Origin: the human T2T-CHM13v2.0 reference genome, Homo sapiens
Assembly: GCF_009914755.1 (NCBI RefSeq)
Contig: NC_060937.1
DNA: 64,000 bases
Reading direction: 5' to 3' (one strand)
Shown here: piece by piece, positions 25,905 through 36,300 of the stretch
Layout: every line of letters begins with the position of its first letter
Position numbering within the stretch: position 1 is the stretch's first letter
Notes under the pieces: model-generated
What the model was told of the DNA's origin: nothing
The model's input: only the letters and a program-made list of their open reading frames with translations
Databases searched by the model: none
Translations under genes and position numbers: made by a program

Positions 25905-26072
25905 CCCTTTGCTACTGGAAGTGTGGCCTACAGACCAGCAGCTTTGGCATCACCTGGAAACTTGCTACAAATGCAGGATCTTGAATCTCACCCTAGATCT
26001 ACAGAATCAGAATCGGCATTTTAACAAGATCCTCAGATGATTCATGTGCCAGTTCAAGGTGAGAACCACTGG
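25905..26072. mobile_element. MER5A
   Basis: accagcagctttggcatcacctggaaacttgct..aaatgcag..gcattttaacaagatcctcagatgattc..gagaaccactg. Confidence 0.85.
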
Positions 26073-26337
26073 GCAGATTCATGTTCTCCTTCCTGGGTTA
26101 TGCCTCTTCTCTTTGTGCTGTGTGGTGTTACCTGATTCACTCCCCGAGGTGCTGCTTCATGCCACTCCCAAACTCATAATCTTCAACTTTCAGTATTTCA
26201 AGTCAGGCAATGCTAATACTTCATATGCATGTAGACAGGACTTTCAGATCATAACGCATTCTCATTTAGCATTTTATCTAAGGTCACATCTAATCAGCAA
26301 TTTTATGGTAATACCCCAAATATCCCAAATCCAACTA

Positions 26338-26399
26338 TGTTGAATTAGGGTTCCCCAGAGGAATAGAACCAACAGGAAACAGATGGACAGACAGACAGA

Positions 26400-26431
<32 letters not shown>

Positions 26432-26990
26432 TATACATATATACATATATATGTGTATATATATGTATGTGTGTATGTATATATTTACATATATAGAGAG
26501 AGAGAGAGAAGAAGAAGAGACAGAGAGAGAGAGATTTATTGTAGGAATTGGCCCACATGATTATGGTGGCCATGAAGTTTCACCATCTGCCATTTGCAAG
26601 CTGGAGAACCAGGAAAGCTAGTGGTGTAATTCAATCTAAATCCAAAGGCCTGAGGACCAGCAAAGACAATGGTGTAGGTCCCAGTCCAACTCTAAAGGGA
26701 TGGGGTGGGTGCAGTGTCTCAGGGCAGGCAGGAGAAGATGGATGGCCCAGATCAGATGAGGAGAAAATTCACCCTTCGTTCACTCTTCCTTATTTTGTTC
26801 CATTCATGTCCTTGGCAGATTGGATGAGGCCCACCCACTCTGGGGAGTGCAATCTTCTTTACTTCTTTACTTTACCAATTCAAACGCTAACCTCTTCCAG
26901 AAACACCCTCACAGACACACCCAATAATGTTGTACCAGCTATCTGGGATCCCTTAGCCCAGTCAAGTTGCACGTACAATTCACCATCACA
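26338..26990 (-). mobile_element. MLT2 (ERVL) solo LTR containing its characteristic compound microsatellite (GACA/CA/TA/GA, 26385-26532)
   Basis: tagggttccccagag..agaaccaacagga..gagatttattgtaggaattggc..gcaagctggagaaccaggaaagc..cccagtcaagttg..accatcaca. Confidence 0.9.
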
Positions 26991-27019
26991 CCATGTATTT
27001 CAGTCTCCCAACAACCACT

Positions 27020-28410
27020 CTTTTTAAGCCACCACTATTCCTTGCCTAAATTATTACAAGTCTCCTGGCTATCTCCTCCTTCCATTCTCATCCCATTATA
27101 ATTCTCTTCTCACAGAATAAATTGGATTGTGCCTTTCCCCTGCTTTAAACCAGCCAGTGTCTCTCACTGGTCTTGGAATGGGAAAAAAAGCTCCTTTCCC
27201 AAGACCTCATGGTCTTAAGACATCCATTCTGACCATCTGAAGAAGCTCATCTCCTCCATTCTCTTCCCCCTGCCCTCCCTCCACACTGGCCTTCCTGCTG
27301 ATCCTAAAACATGGGCTTGGGCTTGCTGTTATCACTGCCTGGAGCTCCAGTGCCCCAGATCATCACATTTCTGACTTGTTTTCATCAGTCATCTACTCCT
27401 CCATGAAGCCTTCCTTGACTGTTGCAGCTAAAGCACCAAAAATCTAGGTCTTCTACCCGTATCTCATTACTCTTTATCCAGTTGTCAGTTCTCCCCACTT
27501 TGCAGCAATTATTACTATCTGAAATTATCTTATTATTTCTTTTGGGCAGGTCTGTGCATGTTTCATCTGGTTCTCTGCACCAACATGCCAACTCTTTGAG
27601 AACATAAACTTGTATGCCTGATTCCCTCGATATCCCTACACTAAATATGTGTTTCTGGCAAGCATTAATGACCAAACATGATTTCCTCTATTTTGATCCT
27701 CATCATAATCCTGTAACCACCACTTCAGACATTACCCTACCATTCTACTGGGCAGCCTCCAAGTATTTAACAATTTGCCCAAGTCAGTTCACAAGTCATA
27801 ACATCAGAATCCAACTCAGACCTCCTCATTCCATGCTTTCTAATTTCCTCAACATAGCACACTCCTTTTCATATCACCTGTTAAGCCCAATACTTTAAGG
27901 CCATTCATAATTGCTACCTAATTTATTCTTTCTAATTTAAAAAAACTATTTCCCAATATATTCTCCCACATTGCAGCTAAGCTACGTGCTCACTTTTCCC
28001 TGGACATGCCCCCATGCTCCTCTGATTCTCTTCTTTTGCTCATGCTGTGCTTGTTGCCTGGAATGTTGCTCTTTTTCCTCCTCTCCCAGCCCATCTATGT
28101 ATGCTGAAATCCTACCTCTTTTTAAAGTTCCATAGAACATATTACCCTCTTCGTGCAGAATATATAATTCAATGCGCTGTTTATCCCTCTTGAATTCTTG
28201 TAGCTCTCTACACACCCTACATCCCAAAAGCTTTGTTTTAACTTTCCTTGTTATACATCATTGTTATCTGCTTGGTCTTATAGCTCTACAATACATTTGC
28301 CATTCTCCTCTGCCCTCTCCAGAGCACATGCTCCCCGCAGGGTTCCATGTCTATCCAAATTCCCTGTTAACATCCTTTGTACAATGCCATACACTGTATG
28401 TTTGCTGAAT
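27020..28410 (+). mobile_element. L2 fragments with a MIR (-, ~27670-27830)
   Basis: ccacactggccttcctgctgatcctaaaacat; gttgcctggaatg; tgtttgctgaat. Confidence 0.6.
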
Positions 28411-29067
28411 TCACTTGATCTACATGACTGCACCTACAGAGCTTTTTATCTCAGAAATATTATGGAAGAGGCCTATAACATCCAATGTGTGTGATGCAAA
28501 TGTGGTCTTACAGATCTATGAAAGAATTGGGAAGACGTAAGGAGAGAAAAGCAAACAGAACTATCATGTGTTCCTATAAATCACTCTGAGAAGCTTCTTT
28601 TCAGGTTTCAGAAGAGGAACAAAGAACATAGATACTCATCTATTATTCCCCTCTCTGAGAAGATAAAACATCGGATGAAAGAGAGAGAGAAAGAACAACT
28701 GACCTTACATTAGCCCCATTGATTGCTGACAAATAGATTACAAAGCATGGGAATTTATTCAACTCTATGTATGCCTGAGGCTTGACTGAATAGCCACCCA
28801 AAGGTATGATGTTGGTGGCTGCCAAGCCCTGGTCACAAGAGTCAGGGCAAGTCAGAAACCATGGCAGTGGCCAAAAAGAATCCTGTGTAGTGTCATGGTG
28901 TCAGTGCATTTCTGGGCTGGAGACTGGTTAGGGCCTCAAATTGTTTCTACAGTTTCTTAGAAAGTCAATGGCCTACCTTGGTCAAAAACTTCATCCTCTT
29001 TCATTCCACCCATTCCCACCCCCTTTTTTTTTTTTTAGGGTCTTTTCAGGTTCTCAAGACCAATAGT

Positions 29068-29424
29068 CAGAGATAGGTTCACTATGAAGCTAATGAAGAT
29101 TAAGATTTGGAACCCCTCAGGTGCATAAGCCCTGTAGTACAGAGAATAACTAACACTTTTAAAGAATTCTAAATGAGGAGGGAAAGACAGTTTAGAAGAG
29201 GGAAGTATTCCTAAGAAAGCATTTCTGGCAAAATGGCCAAAAAGAGCTTGAAAAGAAGAGATATGAATTTCTGAGCTTCCAGTAATTTGTTACAATATCT
29301 TTACTCATTCCAAATAAATATTTATATTCATATCTAATTTGTAATTTTGTATTATTTTTCTTAAAGATGATCCCTCCCACAAAGTAGGTAGGCTTCAGGC
29401 TCCGCAAAACCTGAAACTGCCCCT
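29068..29424. mobile_element. hAT-Tip100-type DNA transposon (MER69/Arthur-like)
   Basis: tgaagctaatgaagattaag..cccctca..; cttcaggctccgcaaaacctgaaactgcccct. Confidence 0.55.
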
Positions 29425-31699
29425 AAAATAGTGTTAACACGAAAAAAGAATGAATGACTTCACTCATTTGACAACATTTGCCAAATACCAACTCATGCTC
29501 ACAGAGCACAGTGAATGTTGTTGAAGAGAAGAATGCCCAGCACTGGGGCCACACAGGCGAGCAAGGTAGATGTGGTCCTTGTGTTTGAGAACTTGTAGGA
29601 CTGTCAGGACATCAGTGAGCTCATGGTAGATTCACATTCCCTATAATTCACGTTCACTATAATGAGGTAAATTCCTCAGTTCAGCTCTTACAGCTTAGGA
29701 AAGAGCCAGTTGACCATCCATCCAATCTCTTTTGATCCTGTGACTCACAGAAGATGTGGACATGGATCTCCACAGTGATCCTTGACCAAGCCAAAAATCA
29801 TAGTTGACTGCCCTCCCCAAACCCCAAACCCAAAACAGTATTTGTGCCCACTCAACTCACCAGTCTACAAAAAAATGGGACAGACTGGATCAGGTTCATA
29901 AGACACGGGGGTCATCCAAGCCACTGGCCACCTTGGGAGGACCACCCACCAGTCAAGCTGGAAGAAGTGCCAGTTATTAGCTACAGCAGAGCTCATCCAC
30001 CCATTTAAACAATAAATAAATAAAGCATCTATTCCTGGGCTTCACTACAAAACTCAAAGGTTTTGTAGAGTTAGGGTTTAACAGGTTGGGGGAGGATAAA
30101 AATGAAATTGTTTCAAAATCACAAAAACAGCAAGGCCAGCAAGGTACATTGAGTTCTTTAGTACTACTAAAACCGGGGAGGGGGGGGCGCGGCTGCTAAC
30201 TTAAATAGCAAGGCCAAGATCAGCATATTGATTCATTAAATCATTCAGCAAATATTTATTGAGTGCCTAGCATGTGTTAGAGCACACATCTATGAAAAAA
30301 ACAGGATCGCTGTCCTCTTGATGCTGACACTCTAGCAGAAGGAGATAGACAACCAGTGACAGCTGAGAGATCAGGGAGATGGCATGTGCAGGATACAGAA
30401 GATCTGGAGTGTTGGGGCAAAGAGAGGTATGTGTTTCCTGAGAATAGGCATTTCTTTGGCTTTGCCCTGATATGCATCAGAAGGGCTGCAGCAAGGGCAG
30501 GGACTGGTGTTTTCAAACAGAAGCAGGTAACCCCACAACAAGAAAGGGTCGCTCAAACACAACACACATTGACACGATCACTCAGCAGGAGGTACACAAT
30601 AAACAAGTATTTTTGAAATGTAATTTTTCCAGCCAGAGAAAAGATTTCATTGATCATCATTTAAAATAGATTTTCATTTCACATCATCTAACTAACTTAA
30701 AAGGCAACGACCATAAATTCCATTTAATAGGTGGTTCCACTGGGGAGGACTGGTGGGGCAATTGTCAATTAGGTATTGCATAAAAGGATGCAAATATCTC
30801 ATAAAAGTGATGGGAGATTATATTATTGCATTAACCATGTCGTTCTTGCCATGCTGTTACACACCATAGAATAATAACTAACACATTTACAAGGTGGAAA
30901 TCATTCCGAATGTGCTTTTAAACTGTGTGCAAATGCAAATTGTCTTGAATCAGTTCTTAGCACCTTTGGTCAGCCACTTTCTAATCTTCTATTTGCAGGG
31001 GAAAATAATTAATGGGTGAAGTATCTGATAGCATAGGTTATGGGCTCCAGCAAGACATTTTCCAATATGTGTTGTTTTACAGCTGTGCCTTTGAAAGCTA
31101 GGCTGTCAAATCTATAAAAATATAAAAGTGATTAATCCCAACCATAAAAACTTCTAATGATGCCATGCTTCAGCCTCCAATTTTTTCCCAGCTTCTAAGG
31201 TAAAGAATTTCAAAATGCCAACAGAATAATTTGGCAGGAGGGCAGGCTAGTATAATATGAAGTAGATGTGGAAGAGTAGAAAACAGAGAGAGCCTAGGCT
31301 TGTTTACACGGAGGGGGTCAGTCTCAAAAAGAAGAAAACAGGATGGGATGTACCCAATAATTCACTCGAAACAGTAAACAGCCAAGAAGTCAGAAGCAAT
31401 ACTGATGACATCAGATTTTAATGTTCATTTATGAGTTATGAATAAGGGAATTGGTTAATACAACTTAGCTTGTGCCCCCCTCCCCCACTCAGAAAAAAAA
31501 AAAAAACCTTGGTTGTCTGGAGCTCCTAGTTGAGATGCAGTTGCAGAAGGTACGCTCAAACTCAAGTCAAAAGAAATAGCTTTGTTGGGAGGGGAAGCAG
31601 AGTCACATTACATATCAAGAAGAAATATAACTCTATGGATATTCTCAAACTTGAGGGAGAGGCATTCAGGAAAGTATGTTAAAGAAAAGATAGTATAGG

Positions 31700-33210
31700 G
31701 ATCTAGCAGTGACAAAAATCACTGTTTTTCTGGATGGAGATAGTAAACAAGTAGGCAAAACGTAGTAGTATAACAGATAAGTGCTATGGAGAAAAATAAA
31801 ACAGGGAATGGGAAAAGGGAGTACTATTAAAATGGGGGTGGGGGGGTTGCTAACTTAAATTGGGTTGCTGGTGGAACCTCACCGAGAAGGCAGCATTTGA
31901 GCAGAGACCGGAATAAGTGATCCATGCCAATATCAGAGGAAAGAGCCAAAAATCATAGTTGACTGCCATCCCCGAACCCAAAACAGTATTTGTGCTCACT
32001 CACCTCACCAGTCTACAAAAAAATGGGACAGACTGGATCAGGTTCATAAGACATGGGAGCCATCCAAGCCACTGGCCACCTTGGGAGGACCACCCATCAA
32101 TATGATGTTGGTGGCTGCCAAGCCCCGATCACAGGAGTCAGGGCAAGTCAGAAACCATAGCAGTGGCCAGAAAGAATCCTATGTAGCATCATGGTGTCAG
32201 TGCATTTCTGGGCTGGAGCCTAGTTTTGTCTTGTCAGGTTCTCAAGACCAATAGTCAGAGGTAGGTTTACTGTAAAGCTAATGAAAATTAAGATTTGGAA
32301 TCTCTCAGGTGCATAAGCCCTGTAAGCAACAACAGCAGGTGCAAAAGCATGAGGTGAGAAAATGCCTGGCACTTTGGGCATCCAGCAAAGAAGCTGGTAT
32401 GGCTGGAACAGGATGGGAGTAGGTGAGATGGCAGGAGGTGCACCTAGAGAGGTAATGGGGACAGTCAGGAAGGGGCTTGTAGGCTATGGTAAGGACTCTG
32501 GCCATTGGCAGATTCTGAGCAGCCAGCAGAATTATGGCTGTGTTGAGAACAGGCTGAAGAGGGCAAGAGTGGATGTAGGGCAGCTGATGTAACAATTCCA
32601 GGTGTGGCATGGCAATGGCAATGTCCAGGGGGTAACAGTGGAGATGATGAGAAGTGGCTGGATTCTGAATATGTTTATGAGGTAGAGCCAACAGGATTTG
32701 CTGATGAATTGGCAATGGGAGTTGAAAGAGAAATAAAGAGTAACTCTGAAATTTTTGACTTGAGCACTGAAAAGAATTGAATTGCTATAAATGGGGTGGG
32801 GAAGATCTCAGGTATAGCAGGTTTGGAGACAAAAGTAGCAAGAGTTTGGTTTTGACTAAAACATTTTGCATGTTTACTATACAGAGAAGTGAAGATTTTA
32901 TTTAGGTAGTTAGATACACAAATCTTGAACTGAGAGAAGAGGTCAGGCTGGAGATACAAATTGAGAAGTTGTGAGCACATACACAGTTGTTAAAGCTATC
33001 AGACTGGATGAGATAATATAGACAATGGTATGGAGAGAGAAGAGAAGAGGTCCAAGGTTTCAGCCTTACGTGCTTCAACATTTAGCAGTCAGGGCTGAGG
33101 GTGAAGAAGCAGTGGAAGCCCAGAAGGAGTGAACAATGAGGCAGAAGGAAAACTAGATGAATATGGTGTCCTAGAAGGCTCATAAAGAAAGTGCATCAAG
33201 GAGAAGAACA
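31700..33210 (-). mobile_element. L2a LINE interrupted by a non-L2 insert at 31944-32324
   Basis: aagtgctatggagaaaaataaa..gcatttgagcagagac..ccatgccaatatcagaggaaagagc [insert] aacagcaggtgcaaaag..gagaagtggctggattctgaatatg. Confidence 0.85.
31944..32324 (+). repeat. Composite local duplication: copies of 29789-29948, ~28794-28933 and 29035-29136
   Basis: Aligned by eye, ~92-95% identity per segment. Confidence 0.93.
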
Positions 33211-33364
33211 GGAGTCCAAAGCATTGTTGAAGTCATGGAAATAGAGGAAATGAGTTGCAAATAGGTGGTAATTTAAGAATGGGATTCCTGAAGTTGGGAA
33301 GATGGAGGGAGTGGCAGGCAGAATTCTAAGGAAGGAATACACATGGAAATGGATTGCTTAAAAC

Positions 33365-33459
33365 TCTTCATGGTCTTGTACCTCATTAAAAAAAAAGGTC
33401 TTGTACCCCATTTAAAAAAAAAGGTCTTCATGGTCTTGTACCCCATTAAAAAAATGGTC
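33365..33459. repeat. Imperfect triple tandem repeat of ggtcttgtacc(t/c)catt(A)n
   Basis: Directly visible. Confidence 0.9.
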
Positions 33460-33734
33460 AAGGGGGGTTCTCCACCCCAGACACAAGTTCACTGGTCAAT
33501 ATGACTCATACTTTCTCATCTTTTTATAAACATCCAACAACTCCTCCTCCTTCCTCCTGATTCCTCTTTCACATACACAAAAAAATAGAAGCTTCCATAT
33601 GTCCCCCACCACATTTTGCCCACCATCTGTATCATGTCCATGCACTCTGCCTTCCCTTGTATTATTATGGACGCATGTCCTTACTGCCATTTGAACAGTC
33701 TCAAAAGGTTCCATGGAAAAAGAAAACTAGAGAG

Positions 33735-33865
33735 AGAGAGAGAGGATGCAAATACAAGAAAATGTTAACAATTGTTGAATTTATGTGAAGAATATATGGG
33801 TGTTCATTGTGCCATCCTTGCAACTTTGTGAATTTAAAATTTTCCAAAATAAAATTTTGGGAAAT
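33735..33865 (+). mobile_element. L1ME-type 3' end
   Basis: aaaatgttaacaattgttgaat..tatatgggtgttcattgt..tttccaaaataaaa. Confidence 0.75.
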
Positions 33866-33869
33866 ACAC

Positions 33870-34703
<834 letters not shown>

Positions 34704-34709
34704 TCTACG

Positions 34710-36300
34710 TCTAAAAGTTTGGGTATCTAATTGTAGGGAAATGTCTTATGAGTGCTAGGCAGCTTTAAGAATCTGTTTGAATTAGTACTCACAGGTTTAA
34801 AGGATGATCAGTCAGTGTAGGAGTATGCTTTTCTCTAGCCACTTTTATCTACATGGATACAGGGATGAGAAAAAAGTAGAGTCAGATTTAACCATTTTGG
34901 AGTTTTGTCAGGCAAATTAAACAAACGGAGAGAAGAAAAGAGAGCTAATGGTATATTTAAATGAGTGATTATGGTGATTGATCATATGCTGATAAAGGAG
35001 GGCAGTAGAGAGAGGATGGGGATGAGGGACATAAAAATGTGGGAGATTGTGAGTTCAAAGTATCATTGAAGTCATGGAGACAGAGGAAGTGAGCTAGAGA
35101 TAGTAGGTGGTAGTTTAAGAATAGAACTCTTCAAGTTAAGAACATTGAGGGTGTGGTAGGCAGAATTCTAAAATGACCCCCCCTTCTCTCATGACTCAGC
35201 CCTTGGATAGTCTTCTCTGTTTGAGTGTGGGAGGAACCTATGAAGATATGAATATTGCATAGGTGATTGGGTGATGTTACATAGCACAGCTGACTTTAAG
35301 TAAAGAAAGTTAGCCTCAGATAGTCTGACCTAATCAGACATGTAGAACTGACCAATAAGAACTGACCTAACCAGGTGAGTCCTTACAAGGGACAGAGCTC
35401 TCCCTGATAAAAGACATTCAAAACATGAGAAGCACCCTATAGAAAAGAGAATCTCCGTTGTTGCCTATGAAGATTTAGGGGGTCACGTGTCAAGGAATGT
35501 GGGTGGCATCTAGGAGCAGAGAATGGCCCAGACTGACAGCCAGCAAGGCAATGGGGACCTCAGTTCACAACGTCAAGTAACGGAAGTCTGCCACAACCAT
35601 GTGAGGGCCATTTGAGAATGCAGACTGGTGAGACACTGAGCCGAGAATCCCAGCAGTGCGCCCAGATGTCTAACCTACACAACCTTGAGCTAATCAATGG
35701 GTCTTGTTTTAAGCCACTCACTTGTGCTTATTTCCTTTCCAATCCTTTGTGGTAATGTCAAGTTTTAAGATATATGAGCAAAGGATTGAGAGTATAAGGT
35801 TGGGTAAAAGACGATAAACTTGAGGAACTAAAATGCATTGGGATATCTACTTGAATTTACCTGTAATTATAAAAGGACTATGGTGAGGAGAGGGTCAGTG
35901 AACCAGGAGTTAAAATCTTCAGAAAATGAAAGAGAATGACCTAGGGGAAGGGGTCTATGGATGACAGAAACTAGGAGAGATGGGTGTGGAATATGCTGAT
36001 GGTATAAATTACATAGCTGGGGTGAGGGAGCAAAGAGGACAGATAGGAATGGTTTAGAACAGTAATGTGGAGCAAGAAGGACAGCACCCCACCTCTAGGC
36101 GCAGTGGTAGGAGGGCTGTCAGAAAGAAAACAACACCCACTTGAAAAAACTGCTGGAAAAATATTGACTTCAGCAGAGAGTCAAATTTCAGGTAGAGGAA
36201 GAAGGTGGAGAGAATTAGAAGTGGTGGAAATATGGGAGGTCTTTCTAATAACTGACCCAGAACTCTGGAAATCACAGTAGAAAATGTAGAAGGTGTTGAG
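34710..36300 (-). mobile_element. L2 body interrupted by an MLT1 LTR
   Basis: Purine-rich L2 ORF2 antisense-like sequence (gaaccaggagttaaaatcttca, gtttagaacagtaatgtggagcaagaagga). Confidence 0.55.
35152..35730 (+). mobile_element. MaLR LTR (MLT1E/F-like)
   Basis: tgtggtaggcagaattctaaaatgacccc..tctaggagcagagaatggccca..gacagccagcaagg..gttttaagccact. Confidence 0.85.

What the first reader, a model, noticed from the sequence alone, without database searches (positions are those of the whole stretch)
31944..32324. Three-piece scrambled templated insertion with microhomology at each switch
Seen: an L2 is interrupted by A (copy of 29789-29948), then B (copy of ~28794/28805-28933), then C (copy of 29035-29136), so donor order is scrambled. 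The left junction shares agc. The A-to-B switch uses ccaccca, present at both 29942-29948 and 28794-28800. The B-to-C switch skips ~105 bp between two ttaggg hexamers (28928-28933, 29035-29040). The L2 resumes with only a few bases lost; no TSD or polyA. Inference: serial template switching during break repair.
Basis: partly seen in the sequence, partly recalled or inferred. Interest (0 to 1): 0.75.

Follow-up and report, generated by a model that had tools for sequence, protein, structure and literature searches.

The report
Old permuted patch copied from nearby DNA
A 381-base patch sitting inside an ancient repeat is a reshuffled copy of three unique stretches lying 2-3 kb upstream, most likely the neutral scar of a break repaired tens of millions of years ago by copying nearby DNA with jumps between short matching sequences.

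Summary
Window 31944-32324 is a three-piece copy, in the order A-B-C, of 29789-29951, 28804-28929 and 29040-29136, which lie in the order B-C-A (BLAST E 5e-62, 2e-48, 2e-35). The T2T genome holds no other copy, so it is not a repeat family.

The patch interrupts an old multi-copy, L2-like repeat. That repeat is continuous across this point in 13 of 34 other loci. A profile of 14 copies puts the loss at about 6-16 repeat bases.

The direction is upstream region to patch:
- The short matches (AGC, CCACCCA..GT, TTAGGG) occur twice in the parent sequences and once in the product.
- An old repeat sits between donors C and A.

The copies differ at 27 of 379 sites (K2P 0.076). The event is therefore old, roughly 17-38 Myr using recalled substitution rates. 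It is not recent and not an assembly artefact.

Best reading (0.6): DNA-level repair or replication with microhomology-primed template switching (MMBIR, FoSTeS or serial slippage). This is a known kind of event. The B-to-C skip may be a later deletion.

Rivals are a circular or stem-closed template and an RNA intermediate. GT/AG dinucleotides flank every piece, but their surrounding sequence looks random. Interest is low to moderate.

The parts
31772..31946 (+). Left flank: old multi-copy (L2-like) interspersed repeat, ending in AGC
   Evidence: nhmmer with a profile of 14 genomic copies gives model 33-207, E 7.7e-29. Other genomic copies are 70-100% identical over parts of it.
31944..31946 (+). 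Left junction: 3-base match AGC shared by the repeat and donor A
   Evidence: The repeat profile reads ..gaagagc at model 201-207. The donor has AGC at 29789-29791.
31944..32099 (+). Piece A', a copy of 29789-29951
   Evidence: E 5e-62. 148 of 156 aligned sites are identical, with one 7-base gap at a CCCCAAA tandem.
32090..32101 (+). A-to-B junction: one copy of the imperfect 12-base match (CCACCCA + 3 bases + GT in the donors)
   Evidence: Mismatches at 32097 and 32100.
32100..32225 (+). Piece B', a copy of 28804-28929
   Evidence: E 2e-48 for 32090-32225 against 28794-28929. 115 of 126 sites are identical.
32226..32227 (+). Two bases at the B-to-C junction that cannot be assigned
   Evidence: They lie between the BLAST segments. 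Sequences printed.
32228..32324 (+). Piece C', a copy of 29040-29136
   Evidence: E 2e-35. 89 of 97 sites are identical.
32325..33200 (+). Right flank: the same old repeat resumes
   Evidence: nhmmer model 202-390, E 2e-17, confident from about model 220. Collinear hits in other copies reach 33200.
29789..29951 (+). Donor A (unique sequence), 2.0-2.2 kb upstream of the insertion point
28794..28929 (+). Donor B, including the CCACCCA..GT match at its start (the copy most likely starts at 28804)
28930..29039 (+). Donor stretch absent from the copy, bounded by TTAGGG at 28928 and 29035 and ending in a T13 run plus AG
   Evidence: No other genomic match.
29040..29136 (+). Donor C
29165..29425 (+). 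Old interspersed repeat inside the 652-base spacer between donors C and A; not copied
   Evidence: About 17 genomic hits at 66-92% identity to query positions 866-1126 of 28300-30300.
28780..28788 (+). Left arm of a 9-base inverted repeat, just outside the start of donor B
   Evidence: Chance of an inverted match of 9 or more in such windows is 0.0043 (tested post hoc).
29950..29958 (+). Right arm of the 9-base inverted repeat, at the end of donor A
   Evidence: Stem pair probability is about 0.05-0.06 in the single-strand DNA ensemble.

Best explanation
This is a fixed, neutral mutational scar with no evident present function.

Proposed sequence of events, on the lineage leading to humans:
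1. Some tens of millions of years ago a break or collapsed fork arose inside an old L2-like repeat.
2. The left 3' end (..AGC) annealed to the AGC at 29789, about 2.2 kb upstream on the same strand (sister chromatid or the same molecule), and copied about 160 bases (A).
3. The low-processivity synthesis came off its template. It re-annealed 1.15 kb further upstream through an imperfect 12-base match (CCACCCA + 3 + GT) and copied B and C.
4. The roughly 105-base stretch between B and C was lost either by a further slip between two TTAGGG or by a later deletion.
5. The new strand rejoined the other side of the break, with a loss of about 6-16 bases of the repeat.

Shown here: the three homologies, the donor-to-insert direction, the interrupted repeat, the short matches, and the age.
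Inferred: that the template was DNA, that the process was replicative or repair template switching (MMBIR, FoSTeS or serial replication slippage type), and that it was a single event.
For: - Homologies have E 5e-62, 2e-48 and 2e-35, all on the + strand.
- The whole genome holds only these local matches (3 candidates, all local).
- The interrupted repeat is continuous across the site in 13 of 34 other loci examined. The profile places the flanks at model positions 207 and about 214-223.
- AGC at the left junction is in both the repeat profile and the donor.
- CCACCCA..GT and TTAGGG are each present twice in the donor region and once or less in the insert. This is the parent/product pattern.
- Chance of a direct match of 7 or more is 0.027 (24-base windows). 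Chance of 6 or more is 0.034 (16-base windows).
- The donors lie 2.0-3.1 kb away in the same orientation.
- There is no poly(A) and no convincing TSD.
- An old repeat sits in the uncopied spacer.
- Mismatches are denser next to the internal junctions: 5 of 25 sites against 22 of 354, Fisher P 0.025. This fits error-prone synthesis but is weak evidence.
- Literature: the MMBIR model describes 3' tails annealing at microhomology to nearby single-stranded DNA, low-processivity synthesis and multiple template switches (PMC2621351, abstract and passages). Multi-template templated insertions are described in PMC8421209 (passages).
Against: - The right junction shows no clear match (0-1 base, by eye).
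- The B-to-C junction is degenerate, so one of the claimed switches cannot be verified.
- The order of the pieces is exactly a single turn round a circle. This is equally expected from a circular or looped template.
- AG precedes and GT follows every donor piece, which by itself would suggest splicing.
- No outgroup genome could be examined. The empty site, the single-event assumption and the date are therefore all inferred.
- The microhomology P values are modest, and the windows were chosen after seeing the data.
Confidence: 0.6

Rival explanations
1. The template was a DNA circle or a stem-closed loop. Either the 1.15-kb segment 28804-29951 was circularised at the CCACCCA..GT direct repeat (eccDNA), or it was held as a loop in single-stranded DNA by the 9-base inverted repeat at its base. 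A polymerase then copied from 29789 round the junction to 29136, or a broken circle was captured at the break.
For: - The pieces form one non-overlapping turn of a circle, from start 29789 through the junction to end 29136.
- Direct repeats sit exactly at the two ends of the would-be circle.
- A 9-base inverted repeat (28780-28788 and 29950-29958) lies just outside them. Its chance is 0.0043, and together with the direct repeat 1 in 20,000 random site pairs.
- Forcing the stem costs only 1.9 kcal/mol over the free single-strand fold.
- Reviews state that eccDNA can reintegrate (PMC9527254, abstract in the search listing only).
Against: - The stem's equilibrium probability is only about 5-6%.
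- The inverted repeat was noticed post hoc.
- With three same-strand pieces, a cyclic order is expected by chance about half the time (my own count: 3 of the 6 possible orders of three pieces).
- Capture of a circle would need loss of 652 bases (57% of it).
- A plain backward switch explains the same product.
Confidence: 0.17
2. The intermediate was RNA. A + strand transcript of 28.8-30 kb, either back-spliced into a circle or copied with reverse-transcriptase template jumps, was turned into a cDNA patch and used to fill a break. This corresponds to a class 2 templated sequence insertion or a circRNA-derived pseudogene.
For: - AG precedes and GT follows each donor piece: AG|29791, 29951|GT; AG|28804, 28926|GT; AG|29039, 29136|GT. 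Given AG frequency 0.077 and GT frequency 0.047 in the window, I estimate by hand that this is improbable by chance, of order 1e-4.
- The stretch skipped between B and C ends in a pyrimidine tract of 0.95, above the 99th percentile of 4,944 AG sites.
- There is no poly(A), as reported for circRNA-derived pseudogenes (PMC4897178, main text part 1 of 2 read).
- Class 2 insertions show microhomology without TSD or poly(A) (PMC5110952, passages).
Against: - Beyond the GT itself, the three 5' sites match the consensus at 2, 4 and 1 of 7 positions, summing to 7. Random GT in the window averages 2.35 (n=3010), which would sum to 7.05. The donors have changed only a few percent since the event, so real sites should still be recognisable.
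- Pyrimidine tracts before A and B are ordinary (0.60 and 0.50).
- The insert ends exactly at the C|A 'exon' boundary, which is unexpected for a randomly opened circle.
- The observed B-C junction does not equal the spliced prediction (it needs a 4-base gap, by eye).
- Splicing does not explain the 7-base CCACCCA match.
- A donor only 2-3 kb away is expected for DNA switching, not for retro-insertion.
- No gene is annotated on the + strand here (hub table). Rfam finds nothing above its gathering threshold.
Confidence: 0.1
3. The insert was built in several steps, for example an A+B..C insertion followed by later deletions, or separate insertions.
For: - 7.6% divergence leaves ample time for later indels. 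One 7-base slippage indel is visible in A.
- The 105-base skip lies between direct TTAGGG repeats, a classic slippage-deletion setting.
Against: - The permuted A-to-B junction still needs a backward switch or a circle.
- The three pieces have similar divergence (5.1%, 8.7%, 8.2%), which is compatible with one age. With 8-11 mismatches each this is not discriminating.
Confidence: 0.1
4. Both places are independent copies of an interspersed repeat, or the duplication is an assembly artefact.
For: None beyond the general abundance of repeats in the region.
Against: - The whole-genome search finds only the local matches. That tool says its repeat counts are lower bounds.
- One search found no hits to A, B or C outside this locus.
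- 27 substitutions between the copies exclude a collapsed or duplicated assembly.
Confidence: 0.03

Closest known systems
MMBIR / FoSTeS / serial replication slippage templated insertions (Hastings et al. 2009, PMC2621351; Osia et al. 2021, PMC8421209)
   Same: Templated pieces are copied from nearby sequence and the donors are kept. Short matches sit at the switch points and there are several switches. There is no TSD or poly(A), and a small loss at the target.
   Different: This case is an ancient, fixed germline event with no associated copy-number change. Its pieces are 97-163 bases, taken from 2-3 kb away in direct orientation. The MMB-TI events screened in PMC8421209 are inverted copies from within 100 bp (passage). 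Human MMBIR copy-number variants usually involve switches of tens to hundreds of kb (PMC2621351 passage).
Class 2 templated sequence insertions (Onozawa and Aplan, PMC5110952)
   Same: A patch at a presumed double-strand break, with microhomology and a micro-deletion, and no TSD or poly(A).
   Different: Those are described as coming from distant regions and from RNA (passages). Here the donor is 2-3 kb away, the patch is permuted, and the splice-site context is random.
circRNA-derived pseudogenes (Dong et al. 2016, PMC4897178)
   Same: Non-colinear order of the pieces and no poly(A).
   Different: There is no known parent circRNA or exons, the splice context is no better than random, and the insertion lies next to its source. 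The paper itself notes that non-colinear junctions can also arise when a polymerase passes across the close ends of a structured template.
eccDNA / microDNA formation and reintegration
   Same: Direct repeats flank a roughly 1.15-kb segment, and the product contains the circle junction.
   Different: Only 34-43% of the would-be circle is present. No circle can be observed. My knowledge of eccDNA junction features is partly recalled; for I saw only the search listing.

Membership tests
Microhomology-mediated template-switch insertion (MMBIR/FoSTeS/SRS type) | The inserted sequence is templated from elsewhere and the donor is retained | tested here: met
   Three homologies with E 5e-62 to 2e-35, with the donors still present.
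Microhomology-mediated template-switch insertion (MMBIR/FoSTeS/SRS type) | Microhomology at the junctions | tested here: met
   Left junction: AGC, 3 bases. A-to-B: GT plus CCACCCA, 9 of 12 (P 0.027). B-to-C: TTAGGG in both donors (P 0.034), but the junction in the insert is degenerate. Right junction: unclear.
Microhomology-mediated template-switch insertion (MMBIR/FoSTeS/SRS type) | More than one template switch in a single event | tested here: inconclusive
   The A-to-B switch is certain. The B-to-C skip could be a later deletion. A single event cannot be shown without outgroups.
Microhomology-mediated template-switch insertion (MMBIR/FoSTeS/SRS type) | Dependence on replication or repair polymerases, with DNA as the template | not testable with these tools
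   This is a historical event. Only the indirect argument against RNA is available.
L1-mediated retrocopy (processed pseudogene / class 1 TSI) | Target-site duplication of 5 bases or more and a 3' poly(A) | tested here: not met
   There is no A or T run at either end. The only shared edge motif is AGC (3 bases), and the right-hand one aligns to the repeat's own sequence.
circRNA-derived pseudogene | A non-colinear junction that coincides with genuine splice sites of a known circRNA | tested here: not met
   GT/AG are present, but the consensus context is 2, 4 and 1 of 7 against a random mean of 2.35. Two of three pyrimidine tracts are ordinary. No + strand gene is annotated (hub table). No circRNA database was available.
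Interspersed repeat family (the insert as a mobile element) | Multiple dispersed copies in the genome | tested here: not met
   The own-genome search returns only the three local donors. The tool states that its counts are lower bounds.
L2 LINE (identity of the interrupted repeat) | Match to the L2 consensus in a repeat library | not testable with these tools
No Dfam or RepeatMasker here. What was shown is that it is old, multi-copy and on both strands: 181 candidates, of which 40 were scored, at 70-87% identity.

The most novel reading that the evidence does not exclude
The backward jump was guided by DNA structure. A 9-base inverted repeat at the base of the 1.15-kb donor segment closed it into a loop in single-stranded DNA, placing the two CCACCCA..GT direct repeats side by side. 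The repair polymerase then ran 'round the loop' and produced a circularly permuted copy. That would be a eukaryotic, kilobase-scale, duplicative counterpart of the palindrome-assisted slippage known from bacterial deletions (recalled). Alternatively, the patch is a rare germline-fixed copy of a circular molecule (eccDNA or circRNA).
Probability: 0.15. Interest if true: 0.55.

Novelty: new member of a known kind. Interest (0 to 1): 0.3.

Why it matters
This is a clean, readable fossil of a multi-step templated repair event in the primate germline. The donors, the target and most junctions are still legible after roughly 7.6% divergence. Such cases help calibrate how often replication- or repair-based template switching, rather than transposition, creates small local duplications. 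They also warn annotators that a 'novel insertion' inside a repeat can be a patch copied from next door. It has no evident functional consequence: the region is intergenic and no RefSeq feature lies there. The mechanism class is well established, so the value is illustrative rather than conceptual. The inverted-repeat/direct-repeat geometry at the back-jump is the one aspect worth a genome-wide test.

Tried and rejected
- Repeat family. The own-genome search with the insert and with the donor region found no dispersed copies of A, B or C. Rejected.
- Assembly artefact. Rejected, because the copies differ at 27 substitutions.
- Spliced-RNA or circRNA origin. I noticed that AG and GT flank every piece and tested the context. 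It was no better than random GT/AG sites, except for the pyrimidine tract before C. Kept only as a minor rival.
- Known structured RNA. An Rfam scan of 28000-33500 gave a single sub-threshold SCARNA7 hit (19.9 bits against a gathering score of 65, E 0.095). Rejected.
- Extra homology around the pieces. A sensitive self-comparison of 26000-36000 found nothing beyond the three pieces. The similarity I suspected between the sequence right of A and the start of B was not supported.
- Editing signature. Transitions outnumber transversions 23 to 4 (P 0.028), and G>A/C>T changes run 15 to 8 in the donor-to-insert direction (P 0.105). This is too weak to claim deaminase editing.
- Exact reading of the B-to-C junction. 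Three models (TTAGGG match, TT match plus a 3-base deletion, canonical splice) each need 2-3 extra changes by eye. None is preferred.
- Earlier findings of this scan were not open.
- No primate outgroup sequence is reachable with these tools, so the empty-site test was not done.
- Naming the flanking repeat against a library was not possible.

Full report
**What is there**

Reading the window and running BLAST of 31900-32400 against the whole window shows that 31944-32324 is made of three + strand copies of upstream sequence:

| Piece | Insert | Donor | E-value |
|---|---|---|---|
| A | 31944-32099 | 29789-29951 | 5e-62 |
| B | 32090-32225 | 28794-28929 | 2e-48 |
| C | 32228-32324 | 29040-29136 | 2e-35 |

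In the insert the order is A-B-C. Upstream it is B, a 110-base gap, C, a 652-base spacer, then A. Piecewise global alignment gives 148/156, 115/126 and 89/97 identical sites.

**Not a repeat family, not an artefact**

A search of the window's own assembly (3.1 Gb) with the insert found only the insert and its three local donors (3 candidates, all scored). A search with 28300-30300 found no other match to A, B or C. The tool warns that repeat counts are lower bounds, but a family with copies this similar would have been seen. Twenty-seven substitutions exclude a mis-assembly.

**The target**

The flanks belong to one old, multi-copy repeat:
- A search with 31300-33000 gave 181 candidates, of which 40 were scored, on both strands at 70-87% identity.
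- Searches with each flank found further copies.
- In one copy (L026) both flanks align collinearly, with the 381 bases absent.
- Using L026 as the query, 13 of 34 other loci have a single alignment running straight across the insertion point, whereas the window is split there.
- A profile built from 14 copies places the left flank at model 33-207 (E 7.7e-29), ending ..gaagAGC. The right flank is at model 202-390 (E 2e-17), but confidently only from about 214-223.

I could not name the family against a library.

**Direction**

Three arguments make the upstream region the source and the insert the product.
1. The insert interrupts a repeat that is continuous elsewhere.
2. Each short match is present in both parent sequences and once in the product. 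AGC is in the repeat profile and at 29789. CCACCCA+3+GT is at 29942-29953 and 28794-28805. TTAGGG is at 28928 and 29035.
3. The uncopied spacer holds an old interspersed repeat at 29165-29425 whose genomic relatives are 66-92% identical. This is much older than the 7% divergence of the copies, so the B..C..A layout is ancestral.

**Junctions**

- Left junction: a 3-base match, AGC.
- A-to-B: the insert's three bases after CCACCCA agree with A at 2 of 3 and with B at 0 of 3 (by eye). The switch most likely happened at the shared GT (29951|28804), with CCACCCA as an upstream anchor, giving 9 of 12 identical. A direct match of 7 or more in 24-base windows around random site pairs occurs with P 0.027.
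- B-to-C: the donors share TTAGGG (a match of 6 or more in 16-base windows has P 0.034). The insert shows no clean hexamer there, and two bases are unassigned. Three ways of reading the junction each need 2-3 extra changes. It may be a third switch, a later slippage deletion in the copy, or a later insertion in the donor.
- Right junction: no convincing match.
- Mismatches are denser within about 6 bases of the internal junctions (5/25 against 22/354, Fisher P 0.025). This is suggestive of error-prone synthesis but weak.

**Age**

The K2P distance is 0.076. With recalled neutral rates of 1-2.2e-9 per site per year this gives about 17-38 Myr, with wide Poisson error. That falls around or before the ape/Old World monkey split. 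All apes should therefore carry the insert, and an empty site must be sought in more distant primates. No outgroup sequence was available here.

**RNA or DNA?**

I noticed that every donor piece is preceded by AG and followed by GT, in the pattern expected of three exons B-C-A with a back-splice from A to B. This would make the insert a circRNA-type retrocopy lacking poly(A), as described in PMC4897178 (main text part 1 of 2 read). I tested the context:
- The three GT sites match the 5' splice consensus at 2, 4 and 1 of 7 variable positions. The mean for all 3,010 GT in the window is 2.35.
- The pyrimidine fractions before the three AG are 0.60, 0.50 and 0.95. The mean of 4,944 AG sites is 0.46 and the 99th percentile is 0.80.

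Only the site before C looks like a real acceptor.

Other points against RNA:
- The donors have changed by only a few percent since the event, so genuine sites should still be visible.
- The observed B-C junction does not equal the spliced prediction.
- The insert would have to be opened exactly at an exon boundary.
- Splicing does not explain the CCACCCA match.
- A source only 2-3 kb away is what DNA template switching predicts.
- Rfam found nothing above its gathering threshold.

I keep RNA at about 0.1.

**Linear or circular template?**

The copied path (29789 to 29951, then 28804 to 29136) is one non-overlapping turn of a circle made from 28804-29951. Just outside the two direct repeats lies a perfect 9-base inverted repeat (28780-28788 and 29950-29958).
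- Chance of such an inverted match is 0.0043.
- Together with the direct repeat it occurred in 1 of 20,000 random site pairs (a post hoc test).
- In a single-strand DNA fold of 28760-29980 the stem has a pair probability of about 0.05-0.06.
- Enforcing the stem costs 1.9 kcal/mol.

A loop closed by this stem would put the end of A beside the start of B and could guide the backward jump. A true eccDNA is another option. The sequence cannot separate these from a plain backward switch, so I give the circle or loop variants about 0.17.

**Comparison with known kinds**

The event has the defining marks of microhomology-mediated, low-processivity template switching during break or fork repair (MMBIR model, PMC2621351, abstract and passages; multi-template templated insertions, PMC8421209, passages; the review context of SRS, FoSTeS and MMBIR in PMC5453318, outline and introduction). 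It also resembles class 2 templated sequence insertions (PMC5110952, passages), except that those are described as distant and RNA-derived. It fails the tests for an L1-mediated retrocopy (no TSD or poly(A)) and for a dispersed repeat.

**Verdict**

This is a new example of a known kind of mutation: old, fixed and apparently neutral. Interest is modest (0.3). The only unusual feature is the direct-plus-inverted repeat geometry at the back-jump.

Noticed in passing
window 28780-28788 and 29950-29958: A perfect 9-base inverted repeat sits immediately outside the two CCACCCA direct repeats that bound the back-jump. Chance is 0.0043 (post hoc). The stem is accessible but a minority state in the single-strand DNA fold.
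   Followed up: partly
window 28926-29039, 29136-29138, 29789-29791, 28802-28804, 29951-29953: AG precedes and GT follows every donor piece. The skipped 110 bases end in a T13 run plus AG (pyrimidine fraction 0.95). Otherwise the context is no better than random.
   Followed up: yes
window 31944-32324 vs donors: Transitions outnumber transversions 23 to 4 (P 0.028 against a 2:1 expectation). G>A/C>T changes run 15 to 8 in the donor-to-insert direction (P 0.105).
   Followed up: partly
window 29813-29835 vs 31968-31983: A 7-base indel lies at a CCCCAAA tandem in piece A. It is ordinary slippage after the duplication.
   Followed up: no
window 33212-33329 and 35051-35171: A direct similarity of about 120 bases at 78.5% identity, probably two copies of an interspersed repeat.
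   Followed up: no
window 26383-26495: A self-complementary (palindromic) low-complexity stretch, lying within a region NCBI masks as repeat (26378-26543).
   Followed up: no
window 30526-30692 (-): A weak Rfam SCARNA7 match (19.9 bits, gathering score 65, E 0.095). Most likely chance.
   Followed up: no
window 29006-29012: A third CCACCCA lies inside the stretch skipped between B and C.
   Followed up: no
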